Source: a virus. Taken from it: a stretch of DNA of 38,620 nucleotides. Location of the stretch: UHGV virus genome UHGV-1367834, one strand, 5' to 3'. The stretch's first letter is position 1; each line of letters begins with the position of its first letter. The position numbers were made by a program, and so were the translations under genes. This document shows positions 3,154 to 38,620 of this stretch, piece by piece. The notes under the pieces were generated by a model. That model worked only from the letters and a program-made list of their open reading frames with translations, made no database searches and was not told the origin of the DNA.

Positions 3154-3650
3154 ATATAAAAGCTTATGAGGGATTATATCTAGTTAGTAATTTAGGTAGA
3201 GTTAAAAGAAAATATATTGATTCAGAAAGGATATTAAAAGGGTATGAAAACGAATGTGGATATATAGTTGTTTGTTTGTCTAAAAACGGCAAATCTAAGA
3301 ACTTTAAAGTTCACCGCTTAGTAGCAGAAGCTTTTATACTAAACCCAGAAAACAAACCAACCGTAAACCATATTGATGAAGATAAAACAAATAATAAAGC
3401 TGACAATTTAGAATGGGCTACAATGAAGGAACAGAATAACCATGGTACGAGGAATAAACGCTCATCAAAAACGCAAGGAATGAAAATAAAAGCAATAGAT
3501 ATTGCAAATGGTGAATATAATATCTACAACTCACAACAAGAATGCGCTAAGAGACTGAACATTATGCAATCAAGTATTAGTCAATGTATTAAAGGAAATA
3601 TGAAACAAACTGGAGGTTATATTTTTGAAAAAATCACAAATGAGTTATAA
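3126..3650 (+). CDS. HNH homing endonuclease (NUMOD4/HNH_3 type)
   Basis: Motifs KAYEGLYLVSNLGRVKR...[15 protein letters not shown]...NNHG, C-terminal tail GGYIFEKI. RBS AGAGGTG upstream. Confidence 0.8.
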   Translation: MVGEKETYLDIKAYEGLYLVSNLGRVKRKYIDSERILKGYENECGYIVVCLSKNGKSKNFKVHRLVAEAFILNPENKPTVNHIDEDKTNNKADNLEWATMKEQNNHGTRNKRSSKTQGMKIKAIDIANGEYNIYNSQQECAKRLNIMQSSISQCIKGNMKQTGGYIFEKITNEL

Positions 3651-5241: not shown

Positions 5242-5952
5242 ATGTCAGAAAAAACAAAATTAGTTATCGTGAGTGTAGAGGATTCAGAAATTTCAACTAA
5301 ATTACAAGTGGCAAAATTAGACTATTCAGAAATGTATGACGCAGTAGCATACAAACAACAATACAACAAAGATACTGAAAAATGGGAAGATTCAGAAGAA
5401 GCTATGAAAAAATATAATGAAGCACTAGAAGTTGCTGGCGGTTCATTTGAAGAAGATAATGAAATTGAACTATTTGTTGATGAACAATCAGGTAAAGCAT
5501 ACTTTACAGAAGGGTCTGGCTTTATCAAAATTGAGAAACCACTAGTTAGCTTAAAACGTATTAAGAAAGCACCAATTGTTGCAATTCAAGATTCGCCTAA
5601 GTGTCGTTCAGTAGTAATTGAACATAAAGGTAAACATTACGCATTTAACTTTAATACAGGTGTATGGTTAGAAAAGAAAAAACAATTTATTCCAAACAAA
5701 GCAAAAATTGCAAAAGCAAAAGTACGCTTCAACGAAGTATTTGAAGATGTGGGTGTGGATTGGGACAATGCAAAAGAAAAAGCAATTGGAATGGTTGTTG
5801 ACGTAACAGTTAAAAAAAATGAATTAGACACAACAAGCAACGTTGGTTGGTTAGAAGCGTTACCACTTGACCCAGATGACCAACCAGAACAAAAACCAGT
5901 TGAAGAAGTTTATCACTCAATTGACATTACAGCTGATGATTTACCATTCTAA
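5242..5952 (+). CDS. hypothetical acidic protein, possibly ssDNA-binding-like
   Basis: Strong RBS TTGGAGGAATT. The protein is acidic with an Asp/Glu-rich C-terminal tail (LDPDDQPEQKPVEEV) of the kind seen in SSB-like proteins. The functional call is speculative. Confidence 0.6.
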   Translation: MSEKTKLVIVSVEDSEISTKLQVAKLDYSEMYDAVAYKQQYNKDTEKWEDSEEAMKKYNEALEVAGGSFEEDNEIELFVDEQSGKAYFTEGSGFIKIEKPLVSLKRIKKAPIVAIQDSPKCRSVVIEHKGKHYAFNFNTGVWLEKKKQFIPNKAKIAKAKVRFNEVFEDVGVDWDNAKEKAIGMVVDVTVKKNELDTTSNVGWLEALPLDPDDQPEQKPVEEVYHSIDITADDLPF

Positions 5953-5980
5953 AATATTTAAAGAAAGTTGACTAAAACAG

Positions 5981-6009
5981 TTGACTTTCTTTTTTTCTCA
6001 TGATATACT
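5981..6009 (+). promoter_or_regulatory. early promoter P2 (TTGACT, 17-nt spacer, TATACT) inside a duplicated promoter module
   Basis: The segment 5959-6043 is nearly identical to 36384-36467 (AAAGAAAGTTGACTAAAACAGTTGACTTTCTTTTTTT...TATACTTA.TTCATAAG.TAA). An 8-bp stem AAAGAAAG/CTTTCTTT plus a T-run overlaps the -35. Confidence 0.65.
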
Positions 6010-6042
6010 TAGTTCATAAGATAAAGAGAGGAAGTAATACAA

Positions 6043-6226: not shown

Positions 6227-6451
6227 ATGAAAAACAGATTCAAGATAGGACAATACGTAGAACTTAAAAATGACAATCACAATGGTATTGGTAGTAAAGG
6301 TGATAAGGTAGTTATACTAGCTAAACTATTTAAACTAGTAGATGGTGTAGATCTTATCTGTAGATTCTCTAATGGGTGTACAGAAGGTTTCTTACAACGT
6401 GAGTTGAAATTAGCAACAAAAACACTTGACAGAATCACATTAATAAAGTAG
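6227..6451 (+). CDS. hypothetical protein
   Basis: The track ORF runs 6179-6451. The ATG at about 6227 has the RBS AAGAGAGG at a proper spacing. Confidence 0.55.
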   Translation: MKNRFKIGQYVELKNDNHNGIGSKGDKVVILAKLFKLVDGVDLICRFSNGCTEGFLQRELKLATKTLDRITLIK

Positions 6452-6485
6452 AATAATAGTATAAACAAATTGGAGGAATTAACAC

Positions 6486-8777
6486 ATGAAAAATATTGCA
6501 GAATTTAAAAAGGCACCAGAACTAGCTGAAAAATTATTGGAGGTATTCAGTAATCTAAAAGGTAATTCACGAAGTCTTGACCCAATGAGAGCTGGTCAAC
6601 ATGATGTGGTTGTGATTGAATCTACCAAAAAGTTATCAGCAAAAGGAAAAGAAATGAAAGTAGTTAAAATGCGGTCATTAGAAGATGGTAGGGACGTTAT
6701 AAGCTACATCATGAAGTTTCGTAAATATGACTGGGACAAATGGAAAAATGTTGAAGTTGGTGACCGTTTATTAATTGATTTAAAATTTAGCAATGGTTTT
6801 GCTACAGTCAAACCTATTAGAAGTATTTCAAAAGGTAATGATACACCATTTAAACCAAGTGAAGCATTAACAAAACAAACCATTTTATTATTTGATATTG
6901 AGATTTTTAAACATGATAGTTTATTTATATTTCGTGATTACTTCACCAAAGAATGGTTTATCATTAATAATGACCTTGACGAATTACGCAAGTTTTATCT
7001 TGAATACCGTGATTCAATGTTTATTGGGTATAATAATGCGTCATATGATAACAATGTAATGCGTGGGTATTTACAAGGCAAAAATGCTTATCAGATGTCT
7101 AAGACAATTATTGAATCAGATAATAGAGGTCTAGTTTATAAGATGTTTGATAGCCATAAAACACCATTGTTTGGAATGGACCTGTACCAAGATAACAAAG
7201 GTTTTAGCTTAAAAGAGCATTCAGCATTCTTAGGTATCAACATTAAAGAAACAGAAGTAGATTTTGACATGGATAGACCATTGACAGATGAAGAAAAAGA
7301 GAAAAACGTTGCATACTGTATGAATGATGTATTAGCAACTGAAAAACGTTTTGAACAAAACATTGGTATGTTATTGGCTAAAGCAACCATTGCTTTAATG
7401 TTTGACATGGATAAGACAGACCTATTACAAACCAATGCTAATTTAACAGCTAAGTTACTTGGTGCAACTAAACAAGAAGTTAGACCAGACTTAACAGACC
7501 CATTAGAATTAGATAAACGATTAAACATTAATACAAAAGAAATTGCAGAAGCATATCTTAACCATGAGTTTGAACTAAATGAAGATGGTAAATTAAATGT
7601 GTCATTAGAGTACACGGACGAAGATGGATATACAATGATTTTTGGTAGTGGTGGTGTACATGGTGCTAAAGCCAGTTATATTCACATTGGAATGTTCCCA
7701 ATGCGTGACTGGGGTTCATTATACCCAAACACAATGGAACAATTCAACTTACTATCAAGAAATATTCCAAAGGATAAGATTCACCGTTATGGTGACTTGC
7801 TAAAACAACGTATGGACGCTAAGTATTCAGGTGAAGAAGTGGCAAACATTAAAGGTGTAGAAGTACCAACATATGTAATGATTAACGGTATCAAGTTACC
7901 ATTGAACACTAAGTTTGGTGCTACTGGTGCGCAGTTCAATGGTTTATATGACCCAAGAAACCAATTCTTGGTTTGTGCAACTGGTCAATTGATTATGACA
8001 AACATGTATGAATTAATTAAAGGTAAGGCACAGTTCATTCAATCAAATACAGATGCACACGCATATATTCCAAACAGTGAAGCAGATGACAAAGCTATTG
8101 ATGAAGCTTTAGATGAATTTGCTAACAAGATTGGGCTAACATTAGATAAGGATATGTTCCGTGAAATTTGGCAAAAAGATGTAAATAACTACATTGCAGT
8201 ACAACCAAATGGAAAAGTAAAAGTAAAAGGTGCTATTGGCTTAACAGGTGGCATGAAAGTGTCAAAAGCGATTGTATCTAATGCGTTCATTAATTACCTA
8301 GTAGCTGGTAAAGATTATAAAGACTTTATCAATGAATGTAATGAACTAAGACAGTTTCAAATTATTACTAAAACAGGTTGGACCTTTGATAGAACGGTTG
8401 CACGTGATAGTGAAGGTAATGAGTTCAACGCACAGAAGGTTAACCGTGTGTTTGCAGTAAAAGACAAAACTAATGCAGTAGAATTGTTTAAGGTCAAAGA
8501 AGGTCAATTATTAGATATTGAAGCTGATGAATTTAAGGATAACATTTCATATACAAAAGGACTGGCAAACGCACCAGAATACTACACAATCAGTAATGAA
8601 GCGATTGGCGAAGGTATTACAATTGATGAAGTTGACAAACAATACTATATTGACCAAGTAGAAGATACTCTTGAACTATGGTTTGGTGAAAATTGGAAAG
8701 AACGTATTGAACAAGCACATCATGAACGAGAATTACAAGGATTCAAACCAGTGGAAGTAAAAAATTATATTGACTAA
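6486..8777 (+). CDS. family B DNA polymerase with a 3'-5' exonuclease domain
   Basis: Exo I motif LLFDIE, Exo II motif YNNASYDNNV, Exo III motif YCMNDV. Polymerase motif A-like DWGSLYPNTM and motif C-like SNTDA. Strong RBS TTGGAGGAATT. Confidence 0.85.
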   Translation: MKNIAEFKKAPELAEKLLEVFSNLKGNSRSLDPMRAGQHDVVVIESTKKLSAKGKEMKVVKMRSLEDGRDVISYIMKFRKYDWDKWKNVEVGDRLLIDLKFSNGFATVKPIRSISKGNDTPFKPSEALTKQTILLFDIEIFKHDSLFIFRDYFTKEWFIINNDLDELRKFYLEYRDSMFIGYNNASYDNNVMRGYLQGKNAYQMSKTIIESDNRGLVYKMFDSHKTPLFGMDLYQDNKGFSLKEHSAFLGINIKETEVDFDMDRPLTDEEKEKNVAYCMNDVLATEKRFEQNIGMLLAKATIALMFDMDKTDLLQTNANLTAKLLGATKQEVRPDLTDPLELDKRLNINTKEIAEAYLNHEFELNEDGKLNVSLEYTDEDGYTMIFGSGGVHGAKASYIHIGMFPMRDWGSLYPNTMEQFNLLSRNIPKDKIHRYGDLLKQRMDAKYSGEEVANIKGVEVPTYVMINGIKLPLNTKFGATGAQFNGLYDPRNQFLVCATGQLIMTNMYELIKGKAQFIQSNTDAHAYIPNSEADDKAIDEALDEFANKIGLTLDKDMFREIWQKDVNNYIAVQPNGKVKVKGAIGLTGGMKVSKAIVSNAFINYLVAGKDYKDFINECNELRQFQIITKTGWTFDRTVARDSEGNEFNAQKVNRVFAVKDKTNAVELFKVKEGQLLDIEADEFKDNISYTKGLANAPEYYTISNEAIGEGITIDEVDKQYYIDQVEDTLELWFGENWKERIEQAHHERELQGFKPVEVKNYID

Positions 8778-19000: not shown

Positions 19001-19902
19001 TGTGCGCTCTCTGCGTCCCAATCAAACGCACCTTTGAATTTGTCAACCGCTTCAATACCAGCATTAATATTTTCAACAACTTCTGTAACAGCGTCACTAA
19101 TCATATCAATTGCTTTAGTAGCTACCGCCATACCAACACCAGCAACTAAACCTTGTAGTCCTTTACTTGCTAATCCTAAACCTTCACTAGTTTCACCACT
19201 TGACTTACCTAATTCTTGCATGCCTTTAGATACTGAATCTAGTTCACTGTCTGTATTGTTTAATTGCTTTTTAAAACCTTGTAACTCTTGTTCAGCTTTG
19301 CTTACTTCTGTTGAATTTTTACCAAACTTTTGCGTTAATTGTTTGATTGCGTTTTCTTGACCAGCAATAGCCTGTTTAGTTAGGTCAGATTGACGTTTTA
19401 AACCAGCCTGTTTTGTTTCCAAAGCACCCATTTTGTCGCCAGCTTTATCCATTGCGTTGGCTTGTGTTTGGAAGTCTTTTGCGTTATCTTTGATTTCTTG
19501 ACCTAGTTTATCTAAACCATTCTCAAACTTGATAACGTCAGCTGTAGTTTTTTGCAAATCTTTTTGCATTCCGTTGTATTTGGCACTAGCATTGTTTAAC
19601 TGTGTTGTTAGTGTTTTAACTTGGTTTGATTCTTCACCATATTTTGCAATAGCATCTTGACGTTTCTTACTTAGTAATTCAACTTTCTTACCTTGTAAGT
19701 CAGTAGCTGTTGCCAAGTCTTTTTCTTTTTGTTGTAGCTTCTCAATGCTTTGTCCTGATTTATCAAACACTGATAAATTGGCTTTCATTGCTGATTCTTG
19801 CTGTTTAATTGACTTGTTTAATTTGTCTAATGTATTAATGGTCTGGTCTACACCGTCAACACCAATACCAAACTTCATATTGCCAATAACCTTATCTACC
19901 AT
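16015..19902 (-). CDS. tail tape measure protein with a C-terminal lytic transglycosylase (SLT) domain
   Basis: 1295 aa, coiled-coil and Ala/Gly-rich, with a hydrophobic middle section. The SLT catalytic motif ...IQRESGGNEKIVQSS...GLLQYIPQTF lies near the C-terminus. RBS AAAAGGAGAG. Confidence 0.85.
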   Translation of the reverse strand: MVDKVIGNMKFGIGVDGVDQTINTLDKLNKSIKQQESAMKANLSVFDKSGQSIEKLQQKEKDLATATDLQGKKVELLSKKRQDAIAKYGEESNQVKTLTTQLNNASAKYNGMQKDLQKTTADVIKFENGLDKLGQEIKDNAKDFQTQANAMDKAGDKMGALETKQAGLKRQSDLTKQAIAGQENAIKQLTQKFGKNSTEVSKAEQELQGFKKQLNNTDSELDSVSKGMQELGKSSGETSEGLGLASKGLQGLVAGVGMAVATKAIDMISDAVTEVVENINAGIEAVDKFKGAFDWDAESAQAVSRLANQLVAEGYSDDINEVAEAMIRVQNVMGAEGMDDDMLQRMTRNAIAFSKNTGADVNETIRGIGKMMTNFGIDADKAWDLMARGAQMGLDQTDELGDNMAEYSQIFGQAGFTAEQTFDMLQSGLDGGAYNLDKVNDLIKEMAISLTDGRFEDNIGMFSSQTQELFRQWQQGGATQADVIRSMISDFGGMENQYEALNKAGTIWSALGEDNSLNVIKSLNNTSMAYDNVEGAQDAMNNAMSNTTGMDAFKSSLRAVGNEIGISLNPMFGKAADAITNFTEKILPKIEPALKKMWEYAGPILEKLGGYLSTSFEIASDIMSTVVKYVSEELIPILMPKIQELGDKLGGLFDKISKFWDEHGETILSGLSFWLEKLTPLFGLAIEVVVGFVDSAIGLVDGFFNIIEGLTEVFEGIFNGDWSRIWEGIKKIFWGAIQVVWNWINLSFFGKILKGAGGFGTIFKEGMSTMWAAVKGFFSKGISGIIDDVWRWFSRVTGIGGNLKSGLTGTMKTLWGDIKGVFSRGIDTIIKWFTGLPGRLGDAIAKGAGHVTGAFKGIFNKVLSAIGGPVNGIIGGANWVLEKFGAPQIPKWDVPQYANGTEGHIGGPMVVNDGGGAEMVIAPNGQAMIPKGRNVMMNAPAGTQVLNAKETSMVLGQKGRIPFYKKGTGFMDGVRNMWDNTKSFVGNGINKVKQTIGDIMDWVGNPLDLARNAIMGAMDLGGLTHVALDMAKGLGTKATTAFAEKVKALFKKKEEEERVSGPVDGNWRALVIKASKEMGANASESEINGILAQIQRESGGNEKIVQSSAVWDVNTASGNPARGLLQYIPQTFDAYKVKGHGNIYSGYDQLLAFFNNTNWRQDLPYGKSGWGPSGGRIRGYYNGGIAKGPQIAKLAENGYPEFIIPTEPAKRGRAMALLNQAKQALGVKEERNTPKQGTSTDLATVVALMQQQNELLQAILAKNTDVLLDGKKLNKELNNLNNTQQRNNRRNLGYI

Positions 19903-20160
19903 TATTCAATCTCTCCTTTTGCTTTTGCTAGGTCTGTTGGTGATAGGACAGTGCCAAAAAATGCTAATGGGTCTTGTTTCTCTTCTTTTTTCTCTTTAGT
20001 ATTATCACTGAATAATTCCAATAAAAGAAGGTAGTCAGCTTCGCTAACATCATTAACGGTCCAACCACCTTCCATGTATGAATTATATAATTTGTTTAGT
20101 GATTCTAAAGATTCGTCCCAGTTAACTTCAACACCGTCCTCTAGGCTTCCTTTGAATCGT
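19903..20160 (-). other. -1-frame ORF linking the chaperone 3' end to the tape-measure start; putative gpT-like frameshift extension
   Basis: The -1 frame relative to the chaperone is open for about 80 codons from just before the chaperone stop to a TAA overlapping the tape-measure ATG. It has no RBS or start codon of its own. Confidence 0.35.
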
Positions 20161-20473
20161 CAACTCCCATAATAGTTCCTAAGATGTTTTCTAAAACGTC
20201 TACTAAGTCGTCAGATTCAATTGAATTTTCAATTGCTTCAAATGTAACTTCTGGGTGTTCAAAGATTTCAACTAATAAGACAATCATTGAATCTAACAAT
20301 TCTAATTGGTCAACTTCTACACCATTAGCCATGTCTTTTTGTACGTTTTCCATATCACGGTAATACTTCATAATACTACGCATTGTCTTAACTTTGACGC
20401 CTTTTTTTGTAATTTTGCGGTTTTTTCCGTCAATAATTAAGTTAATACTGAATGATTTTGTTTGTTTTGCCAT
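20141..20473 (-). CDS. tail assembly chaperone (gpG-like)
   Basis: 110-aa acidic protein between the major tail and tape measure genes. RBS GGAGGA. Confidence 0.6.
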   Translation of the reverse strand: MAKQTKSFSINLIIDGKNRKITKKGVKVKTMRSIMKYYRDMENVQKDMANGVEVDQLELLDSMIVLLVEIFEHPEVTFEAIENSIESDDLVDVLENILGTIMGVDDSKEA

Positions 20474-20559: not shown

Positions 20560-20588
20560 AAAAAGAAGAGCTGTTACGCTCTTCTAAG
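20560..20588 (-). terminator. intrinsic terminator after the major tail gene and its conserved 3' element
   Basis: On the minus strand the hairpin AGAAGAGCGTAACAGCTCTTCT is followed by TTTTTTATTT. Confidence 0.55.
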
Positions 20589-20659
20589 TCAATTCAATTG
20601 ATACACTTGTATCTGCTGGTGTCACCTGTCCTACCACAGGTGGTGTACTAGGGCAATTG
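20589..20659 (-). repeat. copy 1 of a 71-nt conserved 3'-terminal element (last four codons of the major tail gene plus 59 nt)
   Basis: Identical to 23561-23631 at 70 of 71 positions by eye. On the mRNA it reads CAAUUGCCCUAGUACACCACCUGUGGUAGGACAGGUGACACCAGCAGAUACAAGUGUAUCAAUUGAAUUGA. Confidence 0.8.
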
Positions 20660-21223
20660 ATTAATATTGTTTACTTTATCAACAAACTTATCAAGTGTTA
20701 ATGTTTCGCTTGAAACAGCACTCATGTATGCAAAGCCACGTGAATCTGTTACAAATGAACCTTCAATTGTTTCTGTGTTTGGTTCAGTACCACCAGATTC
20801 AGTTGTGTTCAATGCGATTTCTGGGTGGCTGAAACGTCCTTTAACTAAACCAAAGTACATTTCTTTACCGTCTGCACCGTCTGCAACAAATACTGCTGAA
20901 ACGTAAGGTGCTTCTGTATCTTCACCAACGATTGCAATACCATCTTCACCACGTTTAATACCTAAAATTTTCTCATAAACGTTGTCTTTATACAAGTCAA
21001 ATACGTTTAATGAAGCTGTTAACTCTCCAACTCCTTTAGCTGATACCCAAATTGGAACGTTTGACGCATAAACGGTTGTTTGTTCTGCTGAAATTCCTTG
21101 AATTGACGCTTCAATAGTACCGCCACCGCTTTTATCAATTGTGTATTTATCAACGCCAGTTCCGCCTACTTTAGGTACACTAATGATTGCTTTTTTAAAT
21201 CCTACTACAGCTATGATAACCAC
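20648..21223 (-). CDS. major tail protein
   Basis: 191 aa, Gly/Thr/Ser-rich and beta-rich, positioned between the tail-completion genes and the chaperone. The start is non-canonical: a GTG with GAGGAG only 1-2 nt upstream. Confidence 0.7.
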   Translation of the reverse strand: MVIIAVVGFKKAIISVPKVGGTGVDKYTIDKSGGGTIEASIQGISAEQTTVYASNVPIWVSAKGVGELTASLNVFDLYKDNVYEKILGIKRGEDGIAIVGEDTEAPYVSAVFVADGADGKEMYFGLVKGRFSHPEIALNTTESGGTEPNTETIEGSFVTDSRGFAYMSAVSSETLTLDKFVDKVNNINQLP

Positions 21224-21286: not shown

Positions 21287-21841
21287 TTATGCGAATGTTA
21301 TTGAGAACCCCTTGTGTGTTTTTCGTTTACCTCGTAAGACTTTGTTAACATGTCCGCTATCACCATTGTGTTCTACACAGAACTCTCTAACTGTTCTATA
21401 ATAGAATGACTCTCCGTTGTTATTTGTACATATAATCCCATTAAATTTAAAACCATATATGGTGTCCATCTTTTTAAATTGTGACTCTTCTGGAAAAACT
21501 TGCTCTTTTCTCTTTTTTGATATATTATTTTTTGTAGTATCAGTATGATGTCTATTGTGCATTACACCATTACCACCAGCTGTTATATTATATCCATCAA
21601 CTGTAGTGTTGTATTTTTCTATTAACTTCATTTCTAGTTCGTTAGCTTCATCTTTTGTTAATCCTTCTCTTATTATAAAGTGGTTGAATCCATCCCATCC
21701 GTATTTTTGAATTGCATTGTAGAACTTGTGTGAACTACGATAGGTAGAACCGTTACCCCACCTAGTGTTTACTTTCTGCATAGTTTGACCAAAGTATTTT
21801 TTATTATTTTCTTTGTTTATATGCAAATATACTGTATACAT
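21287..21841 (-). CDS. GIY-YIG homing endonuclease
   Basis: N-terminus MYTVYLHINKENNKKYFGQT with an R/E/N catalytic block (RWGNG...YNAIQKYGWDGFNHFIIREGL...EANELEMKLI). The C-terminal region is DNA-binding-like. It is free-standing between the tail-terminator-like gene and the major tail gene. RBS GAGGTG. Confidence 0.85.
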   Translation of the reverse strand: MYTVYLHINKENNKKYFGQTMQKVNTRWGNGSTYRSSHKFYNAIQKYGWDGFNHFIIREGLTKDEANELEMKLIEKYNTTVDGYNITAGGNGVMHNRHHTDTTKNNISKKRKEQVFPEESQFKKMDTIYGFKFNGIICTNNNGESFYYRTVREFCVEHNGDSGHVNKVLRGKRKTHKGFSITFA

Positions 21842-23290: not shown

Positions 23291-23494
23291 TTATTTTCCA
23301 GCTGCTGCAGTTGTAGTGAATTGTGGTACATCTACTTTGCTAGATTCTGGCTTACCATCTTCAATTGCTGTTACTTGAAAATCACCTTTGCTATATAGTG
23401 TTTCTGCTGTTAAACCTGTGATTTTTACTGGTGACGGTTGTTCAGTCACAATCTTTTCACCTGTTTTCTTGTATACGTTAAATACTTTAGCCAT
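23291..23494 (-). CDS. hypothetical small structural-module protein
   Basis: 67 aa between the capsid and connector genes, with its own RBS, downstream of a terminator. Confidence 0.45.
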   Translation of the reverse strand: MAKVFNVYKKTGEKIVTEQPSPVKITGLTAETLYSKGDFQVTAIEDGKPESSKVDVPQFTTTAAAGK

Positions 23495-23550: not shown

Positions 23551-23560
23551 AGTGTTTAAC

Positions 23561-23631
23561 TCAATTCAATTGATACACTTGTATCTGCTGGTGTCACCTG
23601 CCCTACCACAGGTGGTGTACTAGGGCAATTG
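23561..23631 (-). repeat. copy 2 of the 71-nt conserved 3'-terminal element (last four codons of the capsid gene plus 59 nt)
   Basis: See copy 1. Both genes end in CAA-UUG-CCC-UAG (QLP, stop). Confidence 0.8.
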
Positions 23632-24852
23632 TGGTGTTAATGTAATGAATTTACCAGCGTTTTTGTCTACTACTTTAGCATCAAAACGCATGAAGATTGC
23701 TAAGTATTGACCGTAAATTTCGTGGTCAATCCAACGAGCAGTAGTTTCAGCACGATTGAAGAATGTTGCAAATGCTACTGGGTCGCCTAAGAATGCCACT
23801 TTATCACCTTTGTTACCTAACATTTCATCTTTCAACACTGTTACTGGAACACCAAACAATGATTTACCAGACTGTGCTGTAATGTCAGTTTGTAATAAGT
23901 AACGACCTTCACCGTCTTTCATGATGTCAACTGCGTTGTAGAATGATTGAGTAACAATTAATTCTAAACCGTAAGCTGGGTCGAAACCAGTGTTGATTTG
24001 AGTTTTGATATCATCTAATGATTTAGCTGTTACTGCTGTAGCTGTTTTTAACAAGTTAGCTAAAACAAAGTTAGTTGTGTTTAAGCCTTGACGTTGTACT
24101 GAATCAGCAATAATTCCAGCTAAGTCGTCCGCGGAATCATCTAATGATTCTTGTGATACAACAATTTGACCACGGTAAGTTGATACGTTGTAAGGTACTT
24201 CTTCAAATTCAGGTTTTGCCAATGCTGGGTTTTTTGCCAACTCTTCAACTGTCACCATTTTTGCAGTAGTTGATTTCAAGATTGGGTATTTACCGCCAGA
24301 AGTTTTTACTTTGATACTATTCACTTTATTACGTAAGTCAACAACTGTTTCTGGTAATTTACGTGCTTTTGTGATAATATCTTCTGGAATAATTGCTTCT
24401 GCGTCTGTTGATTTAACTTGTCCGTCACCAACCGCACGTGTTTCGTTAAATGATTTTACGCTAGTTGATTTTGAAGTTACGTAGTCTAAAAAGGCACGTT
24501 GTTCTGTTACTGGCTCTGCTAACTCTTTACCATTGATTTTTACTTTCTCCATGTCAATATCTTCTCCTTTTACGTTCTCTAGTGAACGTTTTTCTTTCTT
24601 TGGTTCTTCCTTTGGTTCTTCCTTTGGTTCGTCTTTGACTTCGTCCTTTGGTTCTTCTTTAGGTTCTTCTTTAGGTTCTTCCTTTTTGACCTCGTCTTTA
24701 GGTGCTTCTGCTTTATCTTTTGCACGTTCTTTGTTTTCAGCTGGTGTTTCATCTTTCAAAGCTTCTAACTGTTCAATAACTTTTTTAGCTTCGTCAAGTT
24801 TACCTTCTGCCAACAAAGATTTTGCTTGCGCTTCTAACTCTGCCTTATTCAT
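23620..24852 (-). CDS. major capsid protein (HK97 fold) with an N-terminal scaffold-like coiled-coil/delta region containing (EEPK)n repeats
   Basis: 410 aa. The N-terminal roughly 100 aa is a charged coiled-coil with PKEEPKEEPKDEVKDEPKEEPKEEPKKE. The remainder is of HK97 capsid type (...GQIVVSQESLDD..., ...FDAKVVD...). RBS AAGGAG. Confidence 0.8.
   Translation of the reverse strand: MNKAELEAQAKSLLAEGKLDEAKKVIEQLEALKDETPAENKERAKDKAEAPKDEVKKEEPKEEPKEEPKDEVKDEPKEEPKEEPKKEKRSLENVKGEDIDMEKVKINGKELAEPVTEQRAFLDYVTSKSTSVKSFNETRAVGDGQVKSTDAEAIIPEDIITKARKLPETVVDLRNKVNSIKVKTSGGKYPILKSTTAKMVTVEELAKNPALAKPEFEEVPYNVSTYRGQIVVSQESLDDSADDLAGIIADSVQRQGLNTTNFVLANLLKTATAVTAKSLDDIKTQINTGFDPAYGLELIVTQSFYNAVDIMKDGEGRYLLQTDITAQSGKSLFGVPVTVLKDEMLGNKGDKVAFLGDPVAFATFFNRAETTARWIDHEIYGQYLAIFMRFDAKVVDKNAGKFITLTPQLP
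24596..24705. repeat. imperfect 15-nt tandem repeats (GGTTCTTCCTTTGGT-like) encoding the capsid (EEPK)n region
   Basis: Visible reiteration of TTCTTCCTTTGGTTC and TTCTTCTTTAGGTTC units. Confidence 0.6.
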
Positions 24853-29986: not shown

Positions 29987-30479
29987 TATTTTTCACCTCC
30001 TTATATTTAAAGGTGTAACCTCCACATGTTTTGCGCTTACCTTTTAAAACTTTTACAATTGAACCATCATCAATTTTCAAATCTCTAGCGCAACCTCTAA
30101 TTGAATCATACTCAATTCCATTTGAACAAATTATTTGTTTTGATTTTTGTGTTTTCTGCTGTGTTTCAATTTGTCGTTTGGTTCTTGTTCCATGATTGAT
30201 ATTCTCTTTAGATGTTGACCATTCTAGGTTAGATACAAAATTATTTGTTTTGCATTCATCAATATGGTTTACCTGTGGTTTGTTATCTGGGTTTGGTATA
30301 AATGCTTCTGCAACTAAACGGTGTACCCTCCTAAAGTGTGCTTTATTATCTTTCCACAATGTAACTGTCTTATATCCATCTTTGTCAATATTTTGTTTTA
30401 ACCGTTTGACGTTGTTATATACATTACCATAGTTGTCAACGTAGTATCTACCTTTAAATTCTAATACATCTTTCTTCAT
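29979..30479 (-). CDS. HNH homing endonuclease (NUMOD4/HNH_3 type)
   Basis: Motifs [32 protein letters not shown]...NINHG, C-terminal tail GGYTFKYK. The likely start is the second ATG (MKKDVLEF...) with RBS AGGAGG. A TGTTATACT -10 lies about 25 nt upstream. Confidence 0.8.
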   Translation of the reverse strand: MKKDVLEFKGRYYVDNYGNVYNNVKRLKQNIDKDGYKTVTLWKDNKAHFRRVHRLVAEAFIPNPDNKPQVNHIDECKTNNFVSNLEWSTSKENINHGTRTKRQIETQQKTQKSKQIICSNGIEYDSIRGCARDLKIDDGSIVKVLKGKRKTCGGYTFKYKEVKNNG

Positions 30480-32280: not shown

Positions 32281-32320
32281 AACTGGTTTCATTATTTTTA
32301 AATTAATTTGAACAAAAGTG

Positions 32321-32351
32321 TTGACAACTACTATAGCACATGTTATAGTAG
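32321..32351 (+). promoter_or_regulatory. early promoter P4 (TTGACA, 17-nt spacer, TATAGT) with the inverted repeat CTACTATA-N8-TATAGTAG
   Basis: First + promoter of the right-hand early block. The palindrome spans the spacer and the -10. Confidence 0.6.
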
Positions 32352-32390
32352 GTACATAAGATAACAACAAACAAATTGGAGGAATTAAAA

Positions 32391-32525
32391 ATGACAAAAG
32401 AACAAATCAATGCAGAAGTGAAATTACAAGAAATGTTAGGTAACAAATTAGAAGTGATTCAATTAGGTAATGACATTTACATGTATCTTAATGGTGAATC
32501 ATACAAAACAGCTGAATTAATTTAA
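32391..32525 (+). CDS. small hypothetical protein of about 44 aa, not in the ORF track
   Basis: Strong RBS AATTGGAGGAATTAAAAATG downstream of promoter P4. The reading frame is MTKEQINAEVKLQEMLGNKLEVIQLGNDIYMYLNGESYKTAELI. Confidence 0.5.
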   Translation: MTKEQINAEVKLQEMLGNKLEVIQLGNDIYMYLNGESYKTAELI

Positions 32526-32539
32526 TAAAAATCAGAAAA

Positions 32540-32572
32540 GGGGTTGACAAGTTCAGCCCCAACTGATATACT
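32540..32572 (+). promoter_or_regulatory. early promoter P5 (TTGACA, 17-nt spacer, TATACT) with its -35 embedded in the GGGGTTGA/TCAGCCCC hairpin
   Basis: Duplicated module: 32530-32585 matches 36655-36710. Confidence 0.6.
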
Positions 32573-32601
32573 AAATATATAAATTAAAGGGAGGATATAA
32601 A

Positions 32602-33321
32602 ATGTTAGTATCAAAGAAAAAGCATGATTTATTGATTAAGAACTACAATGAGTTAGTAGATGATAGGGATAGATGGCAAGGAAGATGTATTCACCACGCA
32701 AACAACCTTGACAGAGCATACGAGGAGATAAACGAGTTAAGAGAAATGATTAGAGAGATTAAGAGAGAAAAGAATAGAGATATAAACAACCTAACATTTG
32801 AACGTGACACATATAAGGAAAAATACAAAGAATGGTTTCAAAACTTTATTAAAACAAAAGCAGAACTAGAAAAAGTTGACAAAATTGTTTTACAATATGA
32901 ACAACGAATTAATGAATTGGAGGAAAAAGAAATGACAAAATATGCTAAAATTACAAAATATTTAGGACCACATAACATTGACAAAAGACTTGGTTTAGAA
33001 ATTGGTAAAACATATAAAATTGTAGAATATAAGAGTCCTTTAACTGATAATTGCTATATTTATTTAAATGATGAATATCCATACTATTTCATTTCAGAAA
33101 GACAATATGAATTAGTAGAAAAAGAAGAAAAAGAAGAAACACCAACTTTTAAAACAACTATAGACTTGAAGTCTAGTGTACAAGCTAAAATTGACTCACT
33201 AACAACGGAAGCAGAACACTTATTCAAAAAGCGTGACCGCTTGGAGCAACAGGCAATTAACTTAAGCAAAAAGGCACGCAAACTTAACAAACTGATTGAA
33301 ACTATCAAAGAATTTGAATAA
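32602..33321 (+). CDS. hypothetical coiled-coil protein
   Basis: 239 aa, Glu/Lys-rich. RBS AAGGGAGGA downstream of P5. Confidence 0.6.
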   Translation: MLVSKKKHDLLIKNYNELVDDRDRWQGRCIHHANNLDRAYEEINELREMIREIKREKNRDINNLTFERDTYKEKYKEWFQNFIKTKAELEKVDKIVLQYEQRINELEEKEMTKYAKITKYLGPHNIDKRLGLEIGKTYKIVEYKSPLTDNCYIYLNDEYPYYFISERQYELVEKEEKEETPTFKTTIDLKSSVQAKIDSLTTEAEHLFKKRDRLEQQAINLSKKARKLNKLIETIKEFE

Positions 33322-34701: not shown

Positions 34702-34727
34702 ATATGCTATGATAAGGGAGAAAGTTA

Positions 34728-34756
34728 AATAAAACAGTTGACTTTCTCTTTTTTAG
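34728..34756 (+). promoter_or_regulatory. early promoter P7 (TTGACT, 17-nt spacer, TATAGT) upstream of the primase-helicase gene
   Basis: A third, partial copy of the AAACAGTTGACTTTCT module, followed by CATAAGATAT. Confidence 0.6.
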
Positions 34757-34796
34757 ATGATATAGTAATGTCATAAGATATTTAGGAGGAATAAGA

Positions 34797-36377: not shown

Positions 36378-36407
36378 AAATAATTTAAAGAAAGTTGACT
36401 AAAACAG

Positions 36408-36436
36408 TTGACTTTCTTTTTTTCACATGCTATACT
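36408..36436 (+). promoter_or_regulatory. early promoter P8 (TTGACT, 17-nt spacer, TATACT); duplicate of the P2 module
   Basis: See P2. Confidence 0.65.
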
Positions 36437-36467
36437 TAATTCATAAGTTAAGAGGAGGAATTAGACA

Positions 36468-36656
36468 ATGACAACTAAAGAAAAATACGAAAACAAATTA
36501 AAAAGATTAAATGAAAGATTTGACAAATTAAAATCAGAAATGATTGAAGCATACGACAAAGGAGATAACGAAAAAGGACATAGCTTGAACGACAAACTAG
36601 AAAACATATTAGATGTAATTCTACTAACTGAAACAGTATTAGAAAATTTAAAATAA
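36468..36656 (+). CDS. hypothetical small coiled-coil protein
   Basis: RBS AGAGGAGGAATT downstream of P8. Confidence 0.5.
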   Translation: MTTKEKYENKLKRLNERFDKLKSEMIEAYDKGDNEKGHSLNDKLENILDVILLTETVLENLK

Positions 36657-36671
36657 AAATCAGAAAAGGGG

Positions 36672-36700
36672 TTGACAAGTTCAACCCCAACTAATATACT
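36672..36700 (+). promoter_or_regulatory. early promoter P9 (TTGACA, 17-nt spacer, TATACT) inside the perfect hairpin GGGGTTGACAAGTTCAACCCC; duplicate of the P5 module
   Basis: See P5. Confidence 0.6.
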
Positions 36701-36730
36701 AAGTACATAAGTTAAAAGGAGGAAAACAAA

Positions 36731-37174
36731 ATGGACTTTCAAATTGGAACAGTAAAGAAAACACAAGGACAAGTAAAGAAACACGCTTCACAGTTTACAC
36801 ATAAGGAAGAAGAACAAGTATACAACGCACGAGAGCGTGTAAAAGACTTATGGTTAAAGCGTGGTATTAAGATTGGTTTTCACTTACAAGATAAAATCAG
36901 AAATGGTGAAACTAAATTTTCATATGAAATGACAATGAAAACCATGTTGAGTAGTACAATTGTAGAGTATAACGAAACAGGCGCAGACAAGCGTATTTTA
37001 CTACGTTCACACTATTCAAAAAACAAAGAAGTACAGTGTATTGTTGTGTCACTATTAAGTGGTAAAGTAATTACAAGCTATCTAAACAAAGTAGAGGACG
37101 TTCACAAGACACTTGACCCAAGACGGTATGACAAAAATTTAAAAATTAATTTACCAAAACACTTGACAAAGTAA
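36731..37174 (+). CDS. hypothetical protein
   Basis: RBS AAAGGAGGAAAACAAAATG downstream of P9. Confidence 0.55.
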   Translation: MDFQIGTVKKTQGQVKKHASQFTHKEEEQVYNARERVKDLWLKRGIKIGFHLQDKIRNGETKFSYEMTMKTMLSSTIVEYNETGADKRILLRSHYSKNKEVQCIVVSLLSGKVITSYLNKVEDVHKTLDPRRYDKNLKINLPKHLTK

Positions 37175-37192
37175 AAACAATCATTTATACTA
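37164..37192 (+). promoter_or_regulatory. early promoter P10 (TTGACA, 17-nt spacer, TATACT)
   Basis: Consensus hexamers with a 17-nt spacer; the -35 overlaps the 3' end of the upstream ORF. Confidence 0.55.
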
Positions 37193-37222
37193 AGTATATA
37201 ATCAATTAGGAGGAATAAGTAA

Positions 37223-37495
37223 ATGAAACATAAAGGATTAATTATTGGATTGGCAGTAGGATTAAGTTTTTCAGGAAGTACAGCAATGTTGGCAAACAAC
37301 TTAAACAAGCAGAAATTGAATGAAGCTAAACAAGAATTACACTTATACAAAGAATTGAACGAACGTCAACAAGATATTATTTTAGAATATAAAGTTGTAT
37401 CAGGAATTGAAGTATCAAGTATCACTCAATCATTAGATAATGAACAATTAATTAACGAATTAGAAAAACGAATTAACAAATTGGAGGATAAATAA
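37223..37495 (+). CDS. membrane-anchored or secreted coiled-coil protein
   Basis: N-terminal signal or transmembrane segment (MKHKGLIIGLAVGLSFSGSTAMLA) followed by a coiled-coil. RBS TTAGGAGGAATAAG downstream of P10. Confidence 0.5.
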   Translation: MKHKGLIIGLAVGLSFSGSTAMLANNLNKQKLNEAKQELHLYKELNERQQDIILEYKVVSGIEVSSITQSLDNEQLINELEKRINKLEDK

Positions 37496-38448: not shown

Positions 38449-38620
38449 AGAATGGAAGGATATTAAAGATTATGAAGGTTTATATAAGGTAAGTAACTTA
38501 GGTAGAGTTAAAAGTAACTATAAAGGACTAGAACGACTATTGAAACCACTTTCTAAGAATAACGGTTATTTATTTGTAATTTTATATAAAGATACCAAAC
38601 CTACAAAATATTATGTCCAC
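38441..38620 (+). CDS. HNH homing endonuclease, 3' truncated by the window edge
   Basis: MIEEWKDIKDYEGLYKVSNLGRVKS has the same N-terminal motif as the other NUMOD4/HNH_3 paralogs. Its start overlaps the VRR-NUC stop codon. Confidence 0.75.
   Translation, partial: MIEEWKDIKDYEGLYKVSNLGRVKSNYKGLERLLKPLSKNNGYLFVILYKDTKPTKYYVH

What the first reader, a model, noticed from the sequence alone, without database searches (positions are those of the whole stretch)
20589..20659. A 71-nt element, identical but for one position, at the 3' ends of both the major capsid and major tail genes; candidate +1 frameshift or readthrough at a CCC-UAG shifty stop
Two unrelated structural genes, the capsid gene (stop at 23620) and the major tail gene (stop at 20648), both end with the codons CAA-UUG-CCC-UAG (Q-L-P-stop). 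Each is followed by the same 59 nt, with 70 of 71 positions identical including the last four codons. Homology stops abruptly on both sides, and each copy is followed by a different, unrelated intrinsic terminator, so the shared segment is not simply a terminator. Nucleotide-level conservation between paralogous 3' ends of two abundant virion proteins is what a cis-acting recoding signal predicts. In Listeria phages PSA and A118, both Cps and Tsh are made in normal and C-terminally extended forms by programmed +1 frameshifting at a proline codon next to the stop, with a downstream structure. Here a +1 slip of tRNA-Pro from CCC to CCU would bypass UAG and append the same roughly 21-residue tail (STPPVVGQVTPADTSVSIEL plus S or T) to both proteins before an in-frame stop. 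The UAG lies within the 5' arm of a local stem (CCUAGUACA...UGUGGUAGG). Further helices follow (CACCUG...CAGGUG; GAUAC...GUAUC).
Basis: partly seen in the sequence, partly recalled or inferred. Interest (0 to 1): 0.8.

Follow-up and report, generated by a model that had tools for sequence, protein, structure and literature searches.

The report
Frameshift tail docks split FN3 domain
In this Enterococcus phage the capsid and tail-tube genes both end in a rare-proline "shifty stop", which most likely lets some ribosomes slip +1 and add the same 21-residue tail; that tail is the first two strands of a fibronectin-III domain whose other five strands are made by a separate 67-aa gene, so one small protein could plug onto both head and tail.

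Summary
The capsid (23620-24852, -) and tail (20648-21223, -) genes both end CAA-TTG-CCC-TAG, followed by near-identical sequence (70/71 nt). The window is an Efquatrovirus; about 100 sequenced relatives carry the cassette at both genes.

The +1 reading is strongly supported by comparison:
- The +1 ORF is open and exactly 21 codons long in 34/34 copies.
- pN/pS is 0.31 in the +1 frame, against 1.6 and 3.4 in the other frames.
- CCC is the last sense codon in 33/34 copies, yet only 2% of proline codons.
- No tRNA gene is present, and the readthrough frame is not conserved.

New finding: the 21-aa tail is homologous to strands A-B of FN3 repeats, and the 67-aa ORF after the capsid gene (23291-23494, -) supplies strands C-G. 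Joined, they model as a complete FN3 (pLDDT 95).

The same split recurs elsewhere, reached by -1 shifts (Aramis-like phages, a prophage), by +1 (phiSLT) or in frame (phiEf11, Kayvirus G1). Relatives lacking the small gene also lack the extension.

The CCC-stop +1 mechanism is known (SPP1, Listeria phages, lactococcal 936 phages). The split-domain docking appears undescribed. Frameshifting and docking are inferred, not shown; the RNA helices are unproven.

The parts
23620..24852 (-). Major capsid protein gene (410 aa), 0-frame product ends ...TLTPQLP
   Evidence: ORF; Pfam Phage_capsid 6.6e-25 and phrog_10 6.7e-58; annotated major capsid protein in relatives
23620..23625 (-). Capsid shift site CCC_UAG (CCC 23625-23623, TAG 23622-23620); proposed +1 slip of peptidyl-tRNA-Pro from CCC to CCU
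   Evidence: Sequence. CCC is 6/305 Pro codons in window ORFs, and the only two CCC codons in the structural genes are these two sites. CCC in 33/34 and TAG in 33/34 copies, while the preceding codon varies. The +1 frame is open only 2-6 codons upstream.
23556..23621 (-). Capsid +1-frame extension, 21 sense codons STPPVVGQVTPADTSVSIELS (23621-23559) plus TAA (23558-23556) = FN3 strands A and B
   Evidence: Open and 21 codons long in 34/34 copies; pN/pS 0.34 for capsid copies; homology to the A-B segment of complete FN3 repeats; strands E5-11 and E15-21 at pLDDT 95-97 in the model
23595..23614 (-). Candidate stimulatory hairpin CCACCUG-GGUAGG-GCAGGUG, starting 5 nt after the UAG (unproven)
   Evidence: Fold of the sequence downstream of the stop (z = -1.0); 100% paired but invariant across 19 distinct sequences; analogous hairpins 1-3 nt after the stop in Aramis-like phages and in prophage L026
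23530..23548 (-). Intrinsic-terminator-like hairpin after the capsid extension
23291..23494 (-). 67-aa gene encoding an N-terminally truncated FN3 domain (strands C-C'-E-F-G); proposed partner of the extension
   Evidence: ORF with its own RBS and an in-frame TAA two codons upstream of the ATG. phrog_341 9e-19, positions 1-64 of 154. Profile search finds 484 homologues, including true fn3 repeats. Homologue detected by MS in vB_EfaS-271 lysate at 94% coverage (PMC7503890). Absent where the extension is absent.
20648..21223 (-). Major tail (tube) protein gene (191 aa), 0-frame product ends ...VNNINQLP
   Evidence: Phage_TTP_1 8.1e-9, phrog_88 6e-41; annotated major tail protein in relatives
20648..20653 (-). 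Tail shift site CCC_UAG (CCC 20653-20651, TAG 20650-20648)
   Evidence: same statistics as the capsid site
20584..20649 (-). Tail +1-frame extension STPPVVGQVTPADTSVSIELT (20649-20587) plus TAG (20586-20584)
   Evidence: Tail copies alone give pN/pS 0.26; 13 distinct nucleotide sequences give 4 peptides in the +1 frame versus 12 in each other frame.
20623..20642 (-). Candidate hairpin CCACCUG-GGUAGG-ACAGGUG, 5 nt after the UAG (unproven)
   Evidence: (z = -1.4)
20564..20585 (-). Intrinsic-terminator-like hairpin after the tail extension

Best explanation
This is a programmed +1 ribosomal frameshift cassette present twice, coupled to a split fibronectin-III (FN3) domain. When a ribosome reaches the last sense codon of the capsid or tail gene, the rare CCC sits in the P site and UAG in the A site. 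Slow termination lets peptidyl-tRNA-Pro re-pair with the overlapping CCU, so a fraction of ribosomes continue in the +1 frame for 21 codons (inferred by analogy with SPP1 CCCUAA and lactococcal CCC.UAG). The products are a long capsid form (431 aa) and a long tail form (212 aa), each with the C-terminal peptide STPPVVGQVTPADTSVSIEL(S/T). That peptide is not a domain. It is the A-B beta-hairpin of an FN3 fold. The remaining five strands (C, C', E, F, G) are encoded by the separate 67-aa gene just downstream of the capsid gene, and the split lies in the BC loop. The proposed function is fragment complementation: the free 67-aa protein docks on the displayed hairpins to complete an FN3 domain on the outside of both head and tail. 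The frameshift efficiency would set how many subunits carry it. Shown here: the repeat, its conservation at both genes, the frame-specific purifying selection, the anomalous CCC usage, the homology of the extension and the 67-aa protein to the two parts of contiguous FN3 repeats, and co-occurrence of the two parts across lineages. Inferred: that the ribosome actually shifts, at what efficiency, and that the two pieces physically assemble on virions.
For: 1. Conservation: the element occurs at two places per genome in 101 phage records.
2. Coding signature in the +1 frame only: pN/pS 0.31 (bootstrap CI 0.10-0.76) versus 1.63 and 3.42. 25 distinct nucleotide sequences give 9 peptides, versus 22 and 24 in the other frames. 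The result holds separately for capsid (0.34) and tail (0.26) copies. There are two Ser codon-family switches (AGT<->TCA; AGT<->TCG/TCT) and TTG/TTA/CTG Leu changes. The +1 ORF is open and 21 codons long in 34/34 copies, while both other frames contain stops in 34/34.
3. Shift site: CCC is 2% of Pro codons and, within the structural genes, occurs only at these two positions. CCC is kept in 33/34 copies although the preceding codon varies. The +1 frame is closed 2-6 codons upstream, which confines the shift to the gene end.
4. No tRNA gene in the window and no Rfam family on the element.
5. Split FN3: the 67-aa profile hits fn3 repeats (P0073 fn3 1.4e-35) and 56 proteins that begin at their own N-terminus with the same truncated module. 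A combined extension+67-aa profile aligns collinearly to complete repeats of P0070 (8e-18) and P0109, with the only gap in the BC loop at the junction. An extension-only profile scores 13.5 bits exactly 8 aa upstream of a 67-like module, versus a maximum of 9.0 in 100 column shuffles. AlphaFold2 of extension+67-aa with natural repeats as alignment gives pLDDT 95.0 and pTM 0.83, with strands A and B in the extension. Foldseek top hits are all FN3.
6. Natural experiments: KEN18, Bp29 and IME-EFm1 lack both parts. Aramis, IME-EFm5, dArtagnan and EF36P3 have the small gene plus a homologous 22-codon extension in the -1 frame at G_GAG_UAA / A_AAG_UAA. Prophage L026, with unrelated capsid and tail families, has -1 extensions on both genes plus truncated-FN3 genes. 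phiSLT has a +1 extension plus a truncated-FN3 gene, and phiEf11 has the hairpin in frame at the tail protein C-terminus, followed by a truncated-FN3 gene. Kayvirus G1 chains three genes this way.
7. Precedent for the mechanism: SPP1 CCCUAA +1 with an 87-aa FN3 extension at a 3:1 ratio (PMC6316719); PhiC0139 CCC.UAG (PMC4759559); Listeria tsh CCC_UGA (PMC5009743). 21 + 67 = 88 aa, almost the size of the SPP1 extension.
Against: No protein-level evidence exists. The only proteomics paper on a close relative searched annotated ORFs, and its held supplements contain no peptide sequences. Pfam itself gives no fn3 hit for the 67-aa protein or for the joined sequence; the FN3 assignment rests on homologues of homologues and on a model. 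That model used an alignment of FN3 repeats, so it shows compatibility rather than independent proof, and the single-sequence model was poor (pLDDT 58). No complex prediction could be run. The downstream hairpin in the window is not statistically distinctive (z = -1.0 to -1.4) and shows no covariation. One metagenomic copy has GCC-TAG (L008 tail), which should not slip. Another (L004 tail) has CCC AGC TAA, with no stop in the A site at the slip position. Frameshift efficiency is unknown.
Confidence: 0.72

Rival explanations
1. The +1 extension is made, but it acts on its own (for example as a flexible adhesive tail, an assembly or stability tag, or a strand added to a neighbouring capsid or tail subunit). 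The 67-aa protein would then be an independent virion protein that does not dock on it.
For: All the evidence for translation of the +1 frame applies equally. Physical association of the two pieces is not shown. The tail copy has no adjacent small gene.
Against: The extension aligns specifically to the A-B strands that precede the 67-like module in contiguous FN3 repeats. The two parts are gained and lost together. The gene boundary falls in the BC loop in Enterococcus, Staphylococcus and prophage examples. A five-strand FN3 lacking A and B would expose its core.
Confidence: 0.12
2. The shared segment is an evolutionary relic. A once-complete frameshift-appended FN3 domain was broken by insertion of a stop and terminator, and the fragment persists and is homogenised between the two genes by gene conversion, without present function.
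For: Within-genome identity between the capsid and tail copies (0.928) is slightly higher than between genomes (0.906-0.915), which is compatible with some gene conversion. L008 has a probably inactive GCC-TAG site.
Against: A relic would not show frame-specific purifying selection at both loci across about 100 genomes. It would not retain a 2%-usage CCC codon in 33/34 copies. The same split design would not recur in unrelated capsid and tail families with different shift types.
Confidence: 0.05
3. The element is an untranslated cis-acting RNA signal shared by two highly expressed late genes, such as a 3'-end processing, stability or termination-control element.
For: It lies between the stop codon and a terminator at both genes. 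A local hairpin is fully conserved. Synonymous divergence within the element (pS 0.21) is lower than in the last 20 codons of the genes (about 0.44).
Against: Substitutions follow the +1 codon phase, including serine codon-family switches. Two of the three proposed helices fail conservation or control tests. There is no Rfam match. The sequence is homologous, at protein level, to part of a protein domain. phiEf11 encodes the same peptide in frame.
Confidence: 0.03
4. UAG is read through (suppression) rather than bypassed by a frameshift, giving a 0-frame extension.
For: UAG is the stop in 33/34 copies.
Against: The 0 frame after UAG has pN/pS 1.63, 22 distinct peptides from 23 nucleotide sequences, and a stop within the element in all copies. 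No suppressor tRNA is encoded.
Confidence: 0.01

Closest known systems
Bacillus phage SPP1 gp17.1 / gp17.1* (+1 frameshift at CCCUAA)
   Same: The tail tube protein is of a related type. A rare CCC overlaps a frequent CCU directly before the stop. The +1 product carries FN3 sequence at its C-terminus, displayed on a fraction of subunits (3:1), and is non-essential (PMC6316719, PMC8718954).
   Different: SPP1 appends a complete 87-aa FN3 domain, and only to the tail protein. Here only 21 aa (strands A-B) are appended, the same cassette is on the capsid gene as well, and the other 67 aa come from a separate gene.
Listeria phages PSA / A118 / A500 Cps-L and Tsh-L
   Same: Both the major capsid and major tail proteins of one phage are made in short and frameshift-extended forms. 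tsh shifts +1 at CCC_UGA, in a low-GC host where CCC is about 5% of Pro codons (PMC5009743).
   Different: In those phages the capsid and tail sites differ from each other (PSA cps: ACA_CCC_UCC plus a pseudoknot; A118/A500 cps: -1), and the extensions are different, longer sequences. Here the two sites and the two extensions are essentially the same DNA.
Lactococcal 936-group phage PhiC0139 MTP-TpeX
   Same: The shifty stop is identical (CCC.UAG) at the end of the major tail protein gene, with +1 fusion to the downstream frame supported by Western blot (PMC4759559).
   Different: That fusion adds a 22.6-kDa carbohydrate-binding protein that forms tail decorations. There is no split domain and no capsid copy.
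Frameshift-appended Ig-like domains on phage structural proteins (Fraser et al. 2006 concept; T3 10B, Lactobacillus phage A2), as summarised in PMC5009743
   Same: Ig-like/FN3 modules are added to capsid or tail proteins by +1, -1 or in-frame decoding, with apparent indifference to which. The same indifference is seen here (+1 in Efquatrovirus and phiSLT; -1 in Aramis-like phages and L026; in frame in phiEf11).
   Different: The known cases add whole domains in cis. Here the domain is divided between two polypeptides.
Donor-strand complementation in chaperone-usher pili, and engineered split Ig-like or GFP systems such as SpyTag/SpyCatcher (from general knowledge, not tested here)
   Same: An incomplete beta-sandwich is completed by strand(s) supplied by another polypeptide. 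The chained examples (G1 ORF059 -> ORF080 -> ORF189; P0145, P0111) resemble head-to-tail pilus assembly.
   Different: Pilins lack the C-terminal G strand and receive one N-terminal strand. Here strands A and B are missing and a C-terminal two-strand hairpin is donated. No chaperone or usher is evident. The assembly itself is not demonstrated.

Membership tests
CCC-stop programmed +1 frameshift of Firmicute siphophage structural genes (SPP1, PSA/A118 tsh, 936 MTP-TpeX) | A rare CCC proline codon immediately 5' of the 0-frame stop, overlapping CCU in the +1 frame | tested here: met
   CCC_TAG at both genes. CCC is 6/305 Pro codons overall and 2/84 in the structural genes, both at these sites. 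CCC is conserved in 33/34 copies.
CCC-stop programmed +1 frameshift of Firmicute siphophage structural genes | A +1 ORF continuous with the shift site and conserved as coding sequence in relatives | tested here: met
   34/34 copies open and of identical length; pN/pS 0.31 versus 1.63 and 3.42
CCC-stop programmed +1 frameshift of Firmicute siphophage structural genes | Two protein products (short and extended) detectable in virions or infected cells | not testable with these tools
   The only proteomics on a relative used annotated ORFs; nothing retrievable from its supplements
CCC-stop programmed +1 frameshift of Firmicute siphophage structural genes | The extension encodes a complete accessory (Ig-like/FN3/carbohydrate-binding) domain | tested here: not met
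   The extension is 21 aa, corresponding to strands A-B only. This is the main departure from the family.
CCC-stop programmed +1 frameshift of Firmicute siphophage structural genes | A downstream stimulatory RNA structure (present in some members, e.g. the PSA cps pseudoknot) | tested here: inconclusive
   A hairpin 5 nt after the UAG is 100% paired but invariant, with z = -1.0 to -1.4. Hairpins at the same place in the independent -1 systems reach z = -3.3.
prfB (RF2)-type autoregulatory +1 frameshift | A Shine-Dalgarno-like stimulator a few nt upstream of a CUU_UGA site | tested here: not met
   The upstream sequence is unconserved (the preceding codon is TTG, GCA, ACA, GCT, TTA or AAA) and not SD-like. 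The site is CCC_UAG.
Stop-codon readthrough extension | A conserved 0-frame coding sequence after the stop | tested here: not met
   Stop within the element in 34/34 copies; pN/pS 1.63; no tRNA genes
Fibronectin type III domain (Pfam PF00041) for extension + 67-aa protein | Sequence match to the family profile | tested here: not met
   No Pfam hit at E<=1 for the 67-aa protein or the joined 88-aa sequence
Fibronectin type III domain (Pfam PF00041) for extension + 67-aa protein | Homology to bona fide fn3 repeats and a seven-strand FN3 fold | tested here: met
   The profile of the 67-aa family hits repeats inside proteins scoring fn3 1.4e-35. The joined model has pLDDT 95 with strands A, B, C, C', E, F, G. 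Foldseek PDB hits are all FN3, TM up to 0.69. Caveat: the model was built with an FN3 alignment.
Split-domain (fragment/strand complementation) assembly | Two separately encoded polypeptides that each carry a non-autonomous part of one fold, with conserved co-occurrence | tested here: met
   Separate cistrons with a stop, terminator and RBS between them. The split is at the BC loop in Efquatrovirus, Aramis-like phages, L026, phiSLT, phiEf11 and G1. Both parts are absent together in KEN18, Bp29 and IME-EFm1.
Split-domain (fragment/strand complementation) assembly | Physical complementation of the two pieces | not testable with these tools
   Only single-chain prediction was available. This needs AlphaFold-Multimer, binding assays or cryo-EM.

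The most novel reading that the evidence does not exclude
Many phages of Enterococcus, Staphylococcus and related Firmicutes use a previously undescribed plug-and-socket system built from a split FN3 domain. Structural proteins (major capsid, major tail and others) present a two-strand A-B hairpin at their C-terminus, often only on the fraction of subunits made by a +1 or -1 frameshift. Separate proteins that begin at strand C complete the domain. This would let a single decoration or adhesin protein be mounted on both head and tail after assembly, at a dose set by recoding efficiency. Where the incoming protein ends in its own hairpin (Kayvirus G1 ORF059 -> ORF080 -> ORF189; P0145; P0111), the units could daisy-chain like pilus subunits.
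Probability: 0.6. Interest if true: 0.85.

Novelty: new variant of a known kind. Interest (0 to 1): 0.78.

Why it matters
Frameshift-appended Ig-like domains on phage heads and tails are a textbook example of recoding, but every described case adds a whole domain in cis. If this reading is right, recoding here adds only a docking hairpin, and a separate gene supplies the rest of the fold.

- **Annotation.** It explains a class of puzzling small "major tail protein 2" / "Ig-like" ORFs found in at least 491 sequenced phage genomes. It also identifies unannotated recoding sites in about 100 Enterococcus therapeutic-candidate phages, and it shows why gene boundaries in this family are shifted relative to domain boundaries.
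- **Evolution.** It gives a natural example of protein-fragment complementation used for virion decoration. The same design is reached through +1, -1 or in-frame decoding, which makes it a clean system for studying how recoding sites evolve.
- **Engineering.** A 21-aa tag and 67-aa catcher pair that already works on both capsid and tail would be an obvious handle for phage display, or for retargeting Enterococcus and Staphylococcus phages.
- **Proteomics.** Searches of these phages should include the junction peptides.

Tried and rejected
- **Readthrough of UAG:** rejected on frame statistics, and there is no tRNA gene.
- **Known RNA family:** none on the element. Two sub-threshold Rfam hits elsewhere (sraA 28.7 bits versus a gathering score of 56; Ysr35 19.8 versus 428) are chance.
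- **GAUAC/GUAUC helix:** not conserved.
no better than shuffles, and it would be melted by a ribosome sitting on the site anyway.
- **H-type pseudoknot between CCCUA and the hairpin loop:** considered, then dropped because loop 3 would be 0 nt (my own reasoning from the sequence).
- **Translational bypass from the extension into the 67-aa ORF:** considered and rejected. There are no matching take-off and landing codons, the last extension codon varies (AGT, TCG, TCT, ACT, ACC), the ATG is out of frame with further stops between, the small ORF has its own RBS, and the tail copy has no downstream partner.
- **Transcriptional slippage:** unlikely, since CCC is too short a run (general knowledge).
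- **Small ORFs after the capsid genes of Staphylococcus phage 6ec and Listeria phage PLM26:** not homologous to the 67-aa protein. The 6ec tail gene's CCC_TAA with a 17-codon +1 ORF was not pursued.
- **Pfam scan of the joined sequence:** no hit.
- **Single-sequence AlphaFold model:** uninformative (pLDDT 58).
- **The search for related loci with the capsid protein:** returned only 8 close viral contigs.
- **Literature searches for a prior description of the split**: nothing found. The library lacks most subscription-journal papers, so absence is not proof.
Full report
**1. Observation**

The structural genes of this window lie on the minus strand. The repeat finder reports 20585-20659 and 23557-23631 as a 75-nt direct repeat at 97% identity. 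On the minus strand both the 410-aa capsid gene (23620-24852) and the 191-aa tail gene (20648-21223) end CAA TTG CCC TAG. Pfam and PHROGs confirm their identities (Phage_capsid 6.6e-25; Phage_TTP_1 8.1e-9). Skipping the U of UAG opens a 21-codon frame, STPPVVGQVTPADTSVSIEL followed by S (capsid) or T (tail). Each copy is then followed by a different terminator-like hairpin.

**2. Identity and spread**

The window is an Enterococcus faecalis siphophage of the genus Efquatrovirus, 96-98% identical to phages TwoStep, vB_EfaS_159 and Q69 over the capsid-tail block. The 78-nt element matches 101 phage records at 200 places, essentially always one at the capsid gene and one at the tail gene. No record annotates recoding there. 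The one proteomics paper on a close relative searched annotated ORFs only (PMC7503890).

**3. Is the +1 frame translated?**

I extracted both copies from 16 related loci plus the window, giving 34 copies.

- The +1 ORF is open and exactly 21 sense codons long in 34/34 copies. Both other frames contain a stop in 34/34.
- pN/pS is 0.31 in the +1 frame (bootstrap CI 0.10-0.76), against 1.63 in the readthrough frame and 3.42 in the third frame.
- 25 distinct nucleotide sequences encode 9 peptides in the +1 frame, but 22 and 24 in the other frames.
- The result holds separately for capsid copies (0.34) and tail copies (0.26).
- Substitutions include two serine codon-family switches and TTG/TTA/CTG leucine changes.

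The shift site is equally telling. CCC makes up 6 of 305 proline codons in the window's ORFs, and within the structural genes it occurs only at these two positions. It is retained in 33/34 copies while the codon before it varies freely. The +1 frame is closed 2-6 codons upstream, so entry must occur at the very end of the gene. There is no tRNA gene in the window and no Rfam family on the element.

Two metagenomic variants are exceptions. L008's tail copy reads GCC-TAG, which is probably inactive. L004's tail copy reads CCC AGC TAA, which keeps the +1 register.

**4. RNA structure**

Three helices were tested on 19 distinct sequences.

- GAUAC/GUAUC is broken in about half of them (71.6% of cells paired).
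- CCACCUG/CAGGUG, which starts 5 nt after the UAG, is paired in 100% of cells, but six of its seven pairs never vary, so it can be neither supported nor refuted. Its folding energy is unremarkable (z = -1.0 to -1.4).

Hairpins at the equivalent place occur in the independent systems described below and are significant there (L026: z = -3.2 and -3.3), with a C-G to G-C exchange between the capsid and tail copies (the exchange read from the sequences). A stimulatory hairpin is therefore plausible but unproven for this window.

**5. What the 21 residues are**

A 21-aa tail is far too short to be one of the Ig-like domains that frameshifts normally append. The gene immediately downstream of the capsid gene (23291-23494, 67 aa) has no Pfam hit, but it matches the first ~64 positions of PHROG "major tail protein" families.

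An exhaustive profile search with its family found 484 homologues. These include repeats inside giant proteins that score strongly as fn3 (P0073, 1.4e-35). There are 157 internal repeats preceded by canonical A-B strands, and 56 proteins that, like this one, start with the module at their own N-terminus.

In relatives with complete repeats, the ~21 residues preceding the 67-like part read PPTVESVTPTDTTASIEMNS (P0109) and PPEVESVVPTDTTATITMIS (P0070). The window's extension reads PPVVGQVTPADTSVSIELS.

- A profile of extension plus 67-aa protein aligns collinearly to those repeats (8e-18). The only gap is a 5-residue BC-loop insertion exactly at the junction.
- An extension-only profile scores 13.5 bits, 8 residues upstream of a 67-like module. 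The maximum in 100 column-shuffled controls was 9.0 bits.
- AlphaFold2 of the joined 88 residues, with 54 natural repeats as alignment, gives pLDDT 95.0 and pTM 0.83. Strands A (residues 5-11) and B (15-21) lie in the extension, and C, C', E, F, G lie in the 67-aa part.
- All top Foldseek hits in the PDB are FN3 domains.

The model leans on an FN3 alignment, so it shows compatibility rather than independent proof. The single-sequence model was poor.

The conclusion is that the extension is strands A-B and the 67-aa protein is strands C-G of one FN3 domain, split in the BC loop. For comparison, the SPP1 frameshift extension is a complete FN3 of 87 aa (PMC6316719), and here 21 + 67 = 88.

**6. 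Natural experiments**

- **Both parts absent.** The E. faecium phages KEN18, Bp29 and IME-EFm1 have related capsid and tail genes but neither the small gene nor any extension. Several others match only the capsid 3' end.
- **-1 shift, capsid only.** Aramis, IME-EFm5, dArtagnan and EF36P3 have a homologue of the small gene (hhalign 99.1%). Each has a 22-codon ORF after the capsid stop, VT[TA]P[GS][SN]VATQDVTATGVTITAV, in the -1 frame next to G_GAG_UAA or A_AAG_UAA. Their tail genes have none.
- **-1 shift, capsid and tail.** A prophage (L026) has unrelated capsid (Phage_cap_E) and tail (Phage_tail_2) families. Both genes end CCG GGG GAG TAR and are followed by -1 extensions, VTPPSVEDVTPTADGAIITLS and VDPPSVDDVTPTADGAIINLS. 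Two truncated-FN3 genes follow.
- **+1 shift.** S. aureus phage phiSLT ends its tail gene TTA CCC AGC TAA TCC, the same 15 nt as the L004 variant. It has a +1 A-B-like ORF and then a gene beginning with a truncated FN3.
- **In frame.** E. faecalis phage phiEf11 encodes the hairpin in frame at the tail protein C-terminus (...SVESVTPTFDGASTELS*). A truncated-FN3 gene follows 15 nt later.
- **Chained.** Kayvirus G1 has three consecutive cistrons, and every gene boundary splits an FN3 in the BC loop. Small proteins such as P0145, P0080 and P0111 likewise end in a hairpin of their own.

The truncated-FN3 gene occurs in 491 phage records: 364 Staphylococcus, 117 Enterococcus and 8 Lactobacillus.

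**7. Mechanism proposed**

The steps for which the sequence evidence is direct are the cassette itself, the coding signature, the shift-site anomaly, the homology of the two parts, and their co-occurrence.

The inferred steps are these. Peptidyl-tRNA-Pro slips from CCC to CCU while UAG awaits release factor, as in SPP1 (CCCUAA), PhiC0139 (CCC.UAG) and Listeria tsh (CCC_UGA) (PMC6316719, PMC4759559, PMC5009743). A minority of capsid and tail subunits then carry the hairpin. The free 67-aa protein, detected by MS at 94% coverage in a relative's lysate, completes the fold on those subunits. The result would be an FN3 domain displayed on head and tail.

A split offers several possible advantages: one gene serves two structures, decoration can follow assembly, and larger adhesin modules can be swapped in, as in phiSLT ORF151 and phiEf11 gp16.

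**8. Comparison and novelty**

The recoding mechanism is a new member of a well-known kind. Three things appear new. The appended piece is a non-autonomous fragment of a domain. Its complement is a separate gene. The same cassette serves both capsid and tail, a design that recurs across lineages whatever the decoding mode. Eight literature searches and a decoration-protein review turned up no description of this. The searchable library lacks most subscription-journal papers, so prior description cannot be excluded.

**9. Verdict**

The +1 reading is supported, with about 0.85-0.9 confidence that the frame is translated by a shift at CCC_UAG. The split-FN3 docking model is the best explanation, at about 0.7. 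The joint statement is rated 0.72.

Noticed in passing
window 21287-21841 (-): A 184-aa ORF beginning MYTVYLHINKENNKKYFGQT (GIY-YIG-like by eye) sits between the tail-terminator gene and the major tail gene. TwoStep and KEN07 annotate a homing endonuclease at this position, while AL3, phiSHEF2, IME-EF4 and others have none. It is a presence/absence polymorphism next to one of the two cassette copies.
   Followed up: partly
window 1-142, 1847-1919, 2109-2202, 3134-3456, 30190-30326, 38440-38512: Several diverged direct and inverted repeats (families D3, D4, D5, I1, I2; 71-92% identity) encode motifs such as EWKDIKGYEGLYQVSNLGRVK. This suggests multiple paralogous free-standing homing-endonuclease genes scattered on both strands.
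   Followed up: no
window 5951-6036, 6416-6495, 32291-32376, 32524-32615, 34708-34793, 36378-36463, 36652-36743, 37153-37232: Families of 80-92-nt repeats containing TTGACT/TTGACA ... TATACT/TATAGT followed by an RBS and ATG (D2, D6, D7, D9). They look like a reiterated early or middle promoter-leader cassette.
   Followed up: no
window 19902-20075 and 20141-20473 (-): Two small ORFs between the tail gene and the tape-measure gene, in the position of the tail-assembly chaperone pair. EfaCPT1 annotates a programmed -1 frameshift joining the homologous pair. This would be a third recoding event in the same module, and it is not annotated in most relatives.
   Followed up: no
window 24580-24696 (-; capsid N-terminal region): Seven tandem 12-nt repeats (D1) encode a (K/E)EEPK-type repeat in the N-terminal ~100 residues of the capsid protein, presumably the scaffolding or delta region. 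Capsid length differs among relatives.
   Followed up: no
L004 10152-10260 (tail copy) and L028 (phiSLT) 1395-1415: One Efquatrovirus metagenomic contig has CCC AGC TAA instead of CCC TAG at the tail site. It shares the 15 nt TTACCCAGCTAATCC with S. aureus phage phiSLT, where a +1 A-B-like ORF also follows. This may be a second type of +1 site, with a slip at CCC_A and a sense codon in the A site, or a case of horizontal exchange.
   Followed up: partly
L008 ~8828 (tail copy): The shift codon is GCC instead of CCC (GCC TAG) while the extension is intact. This is either a recent inactivation of the tail site or an assembly error.
   Followed up: no
L030 (Kayvirus G1, NC_007066.1 70128-71537): Three consecutive cistrons (ORF059, ORF080, ORF189) each split an FN3 at the BC loop. 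They lie next to sigma-factor and recombinase genes rather than in the capsid/tail block, which suggests a three-protein chain assembled by hairpin donation in a myophage.
   Followed up: partly
L021 (Staphylococcus phage 6ec) 5140-5225: The major tail gene ends ACT CCC TAA, followed by a 17-codon +1 ORF (KNVSVSARTDSAIVDAE*). This is another possible short CCC-stop extension. The small ORF after its capsid gene is not homologous to the 67-aa protein.
   Followed up: partly
L029 (phiEf11) 1483-1503: The 15 nt between the tail protein stop (TAA) and the truncated-FN3 gene contain no further stop, and the downstream ORF is in the same frame. Rare readthrough would therefore yield a contiguous FN3. 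This may be coincidence.
   Followed up: no
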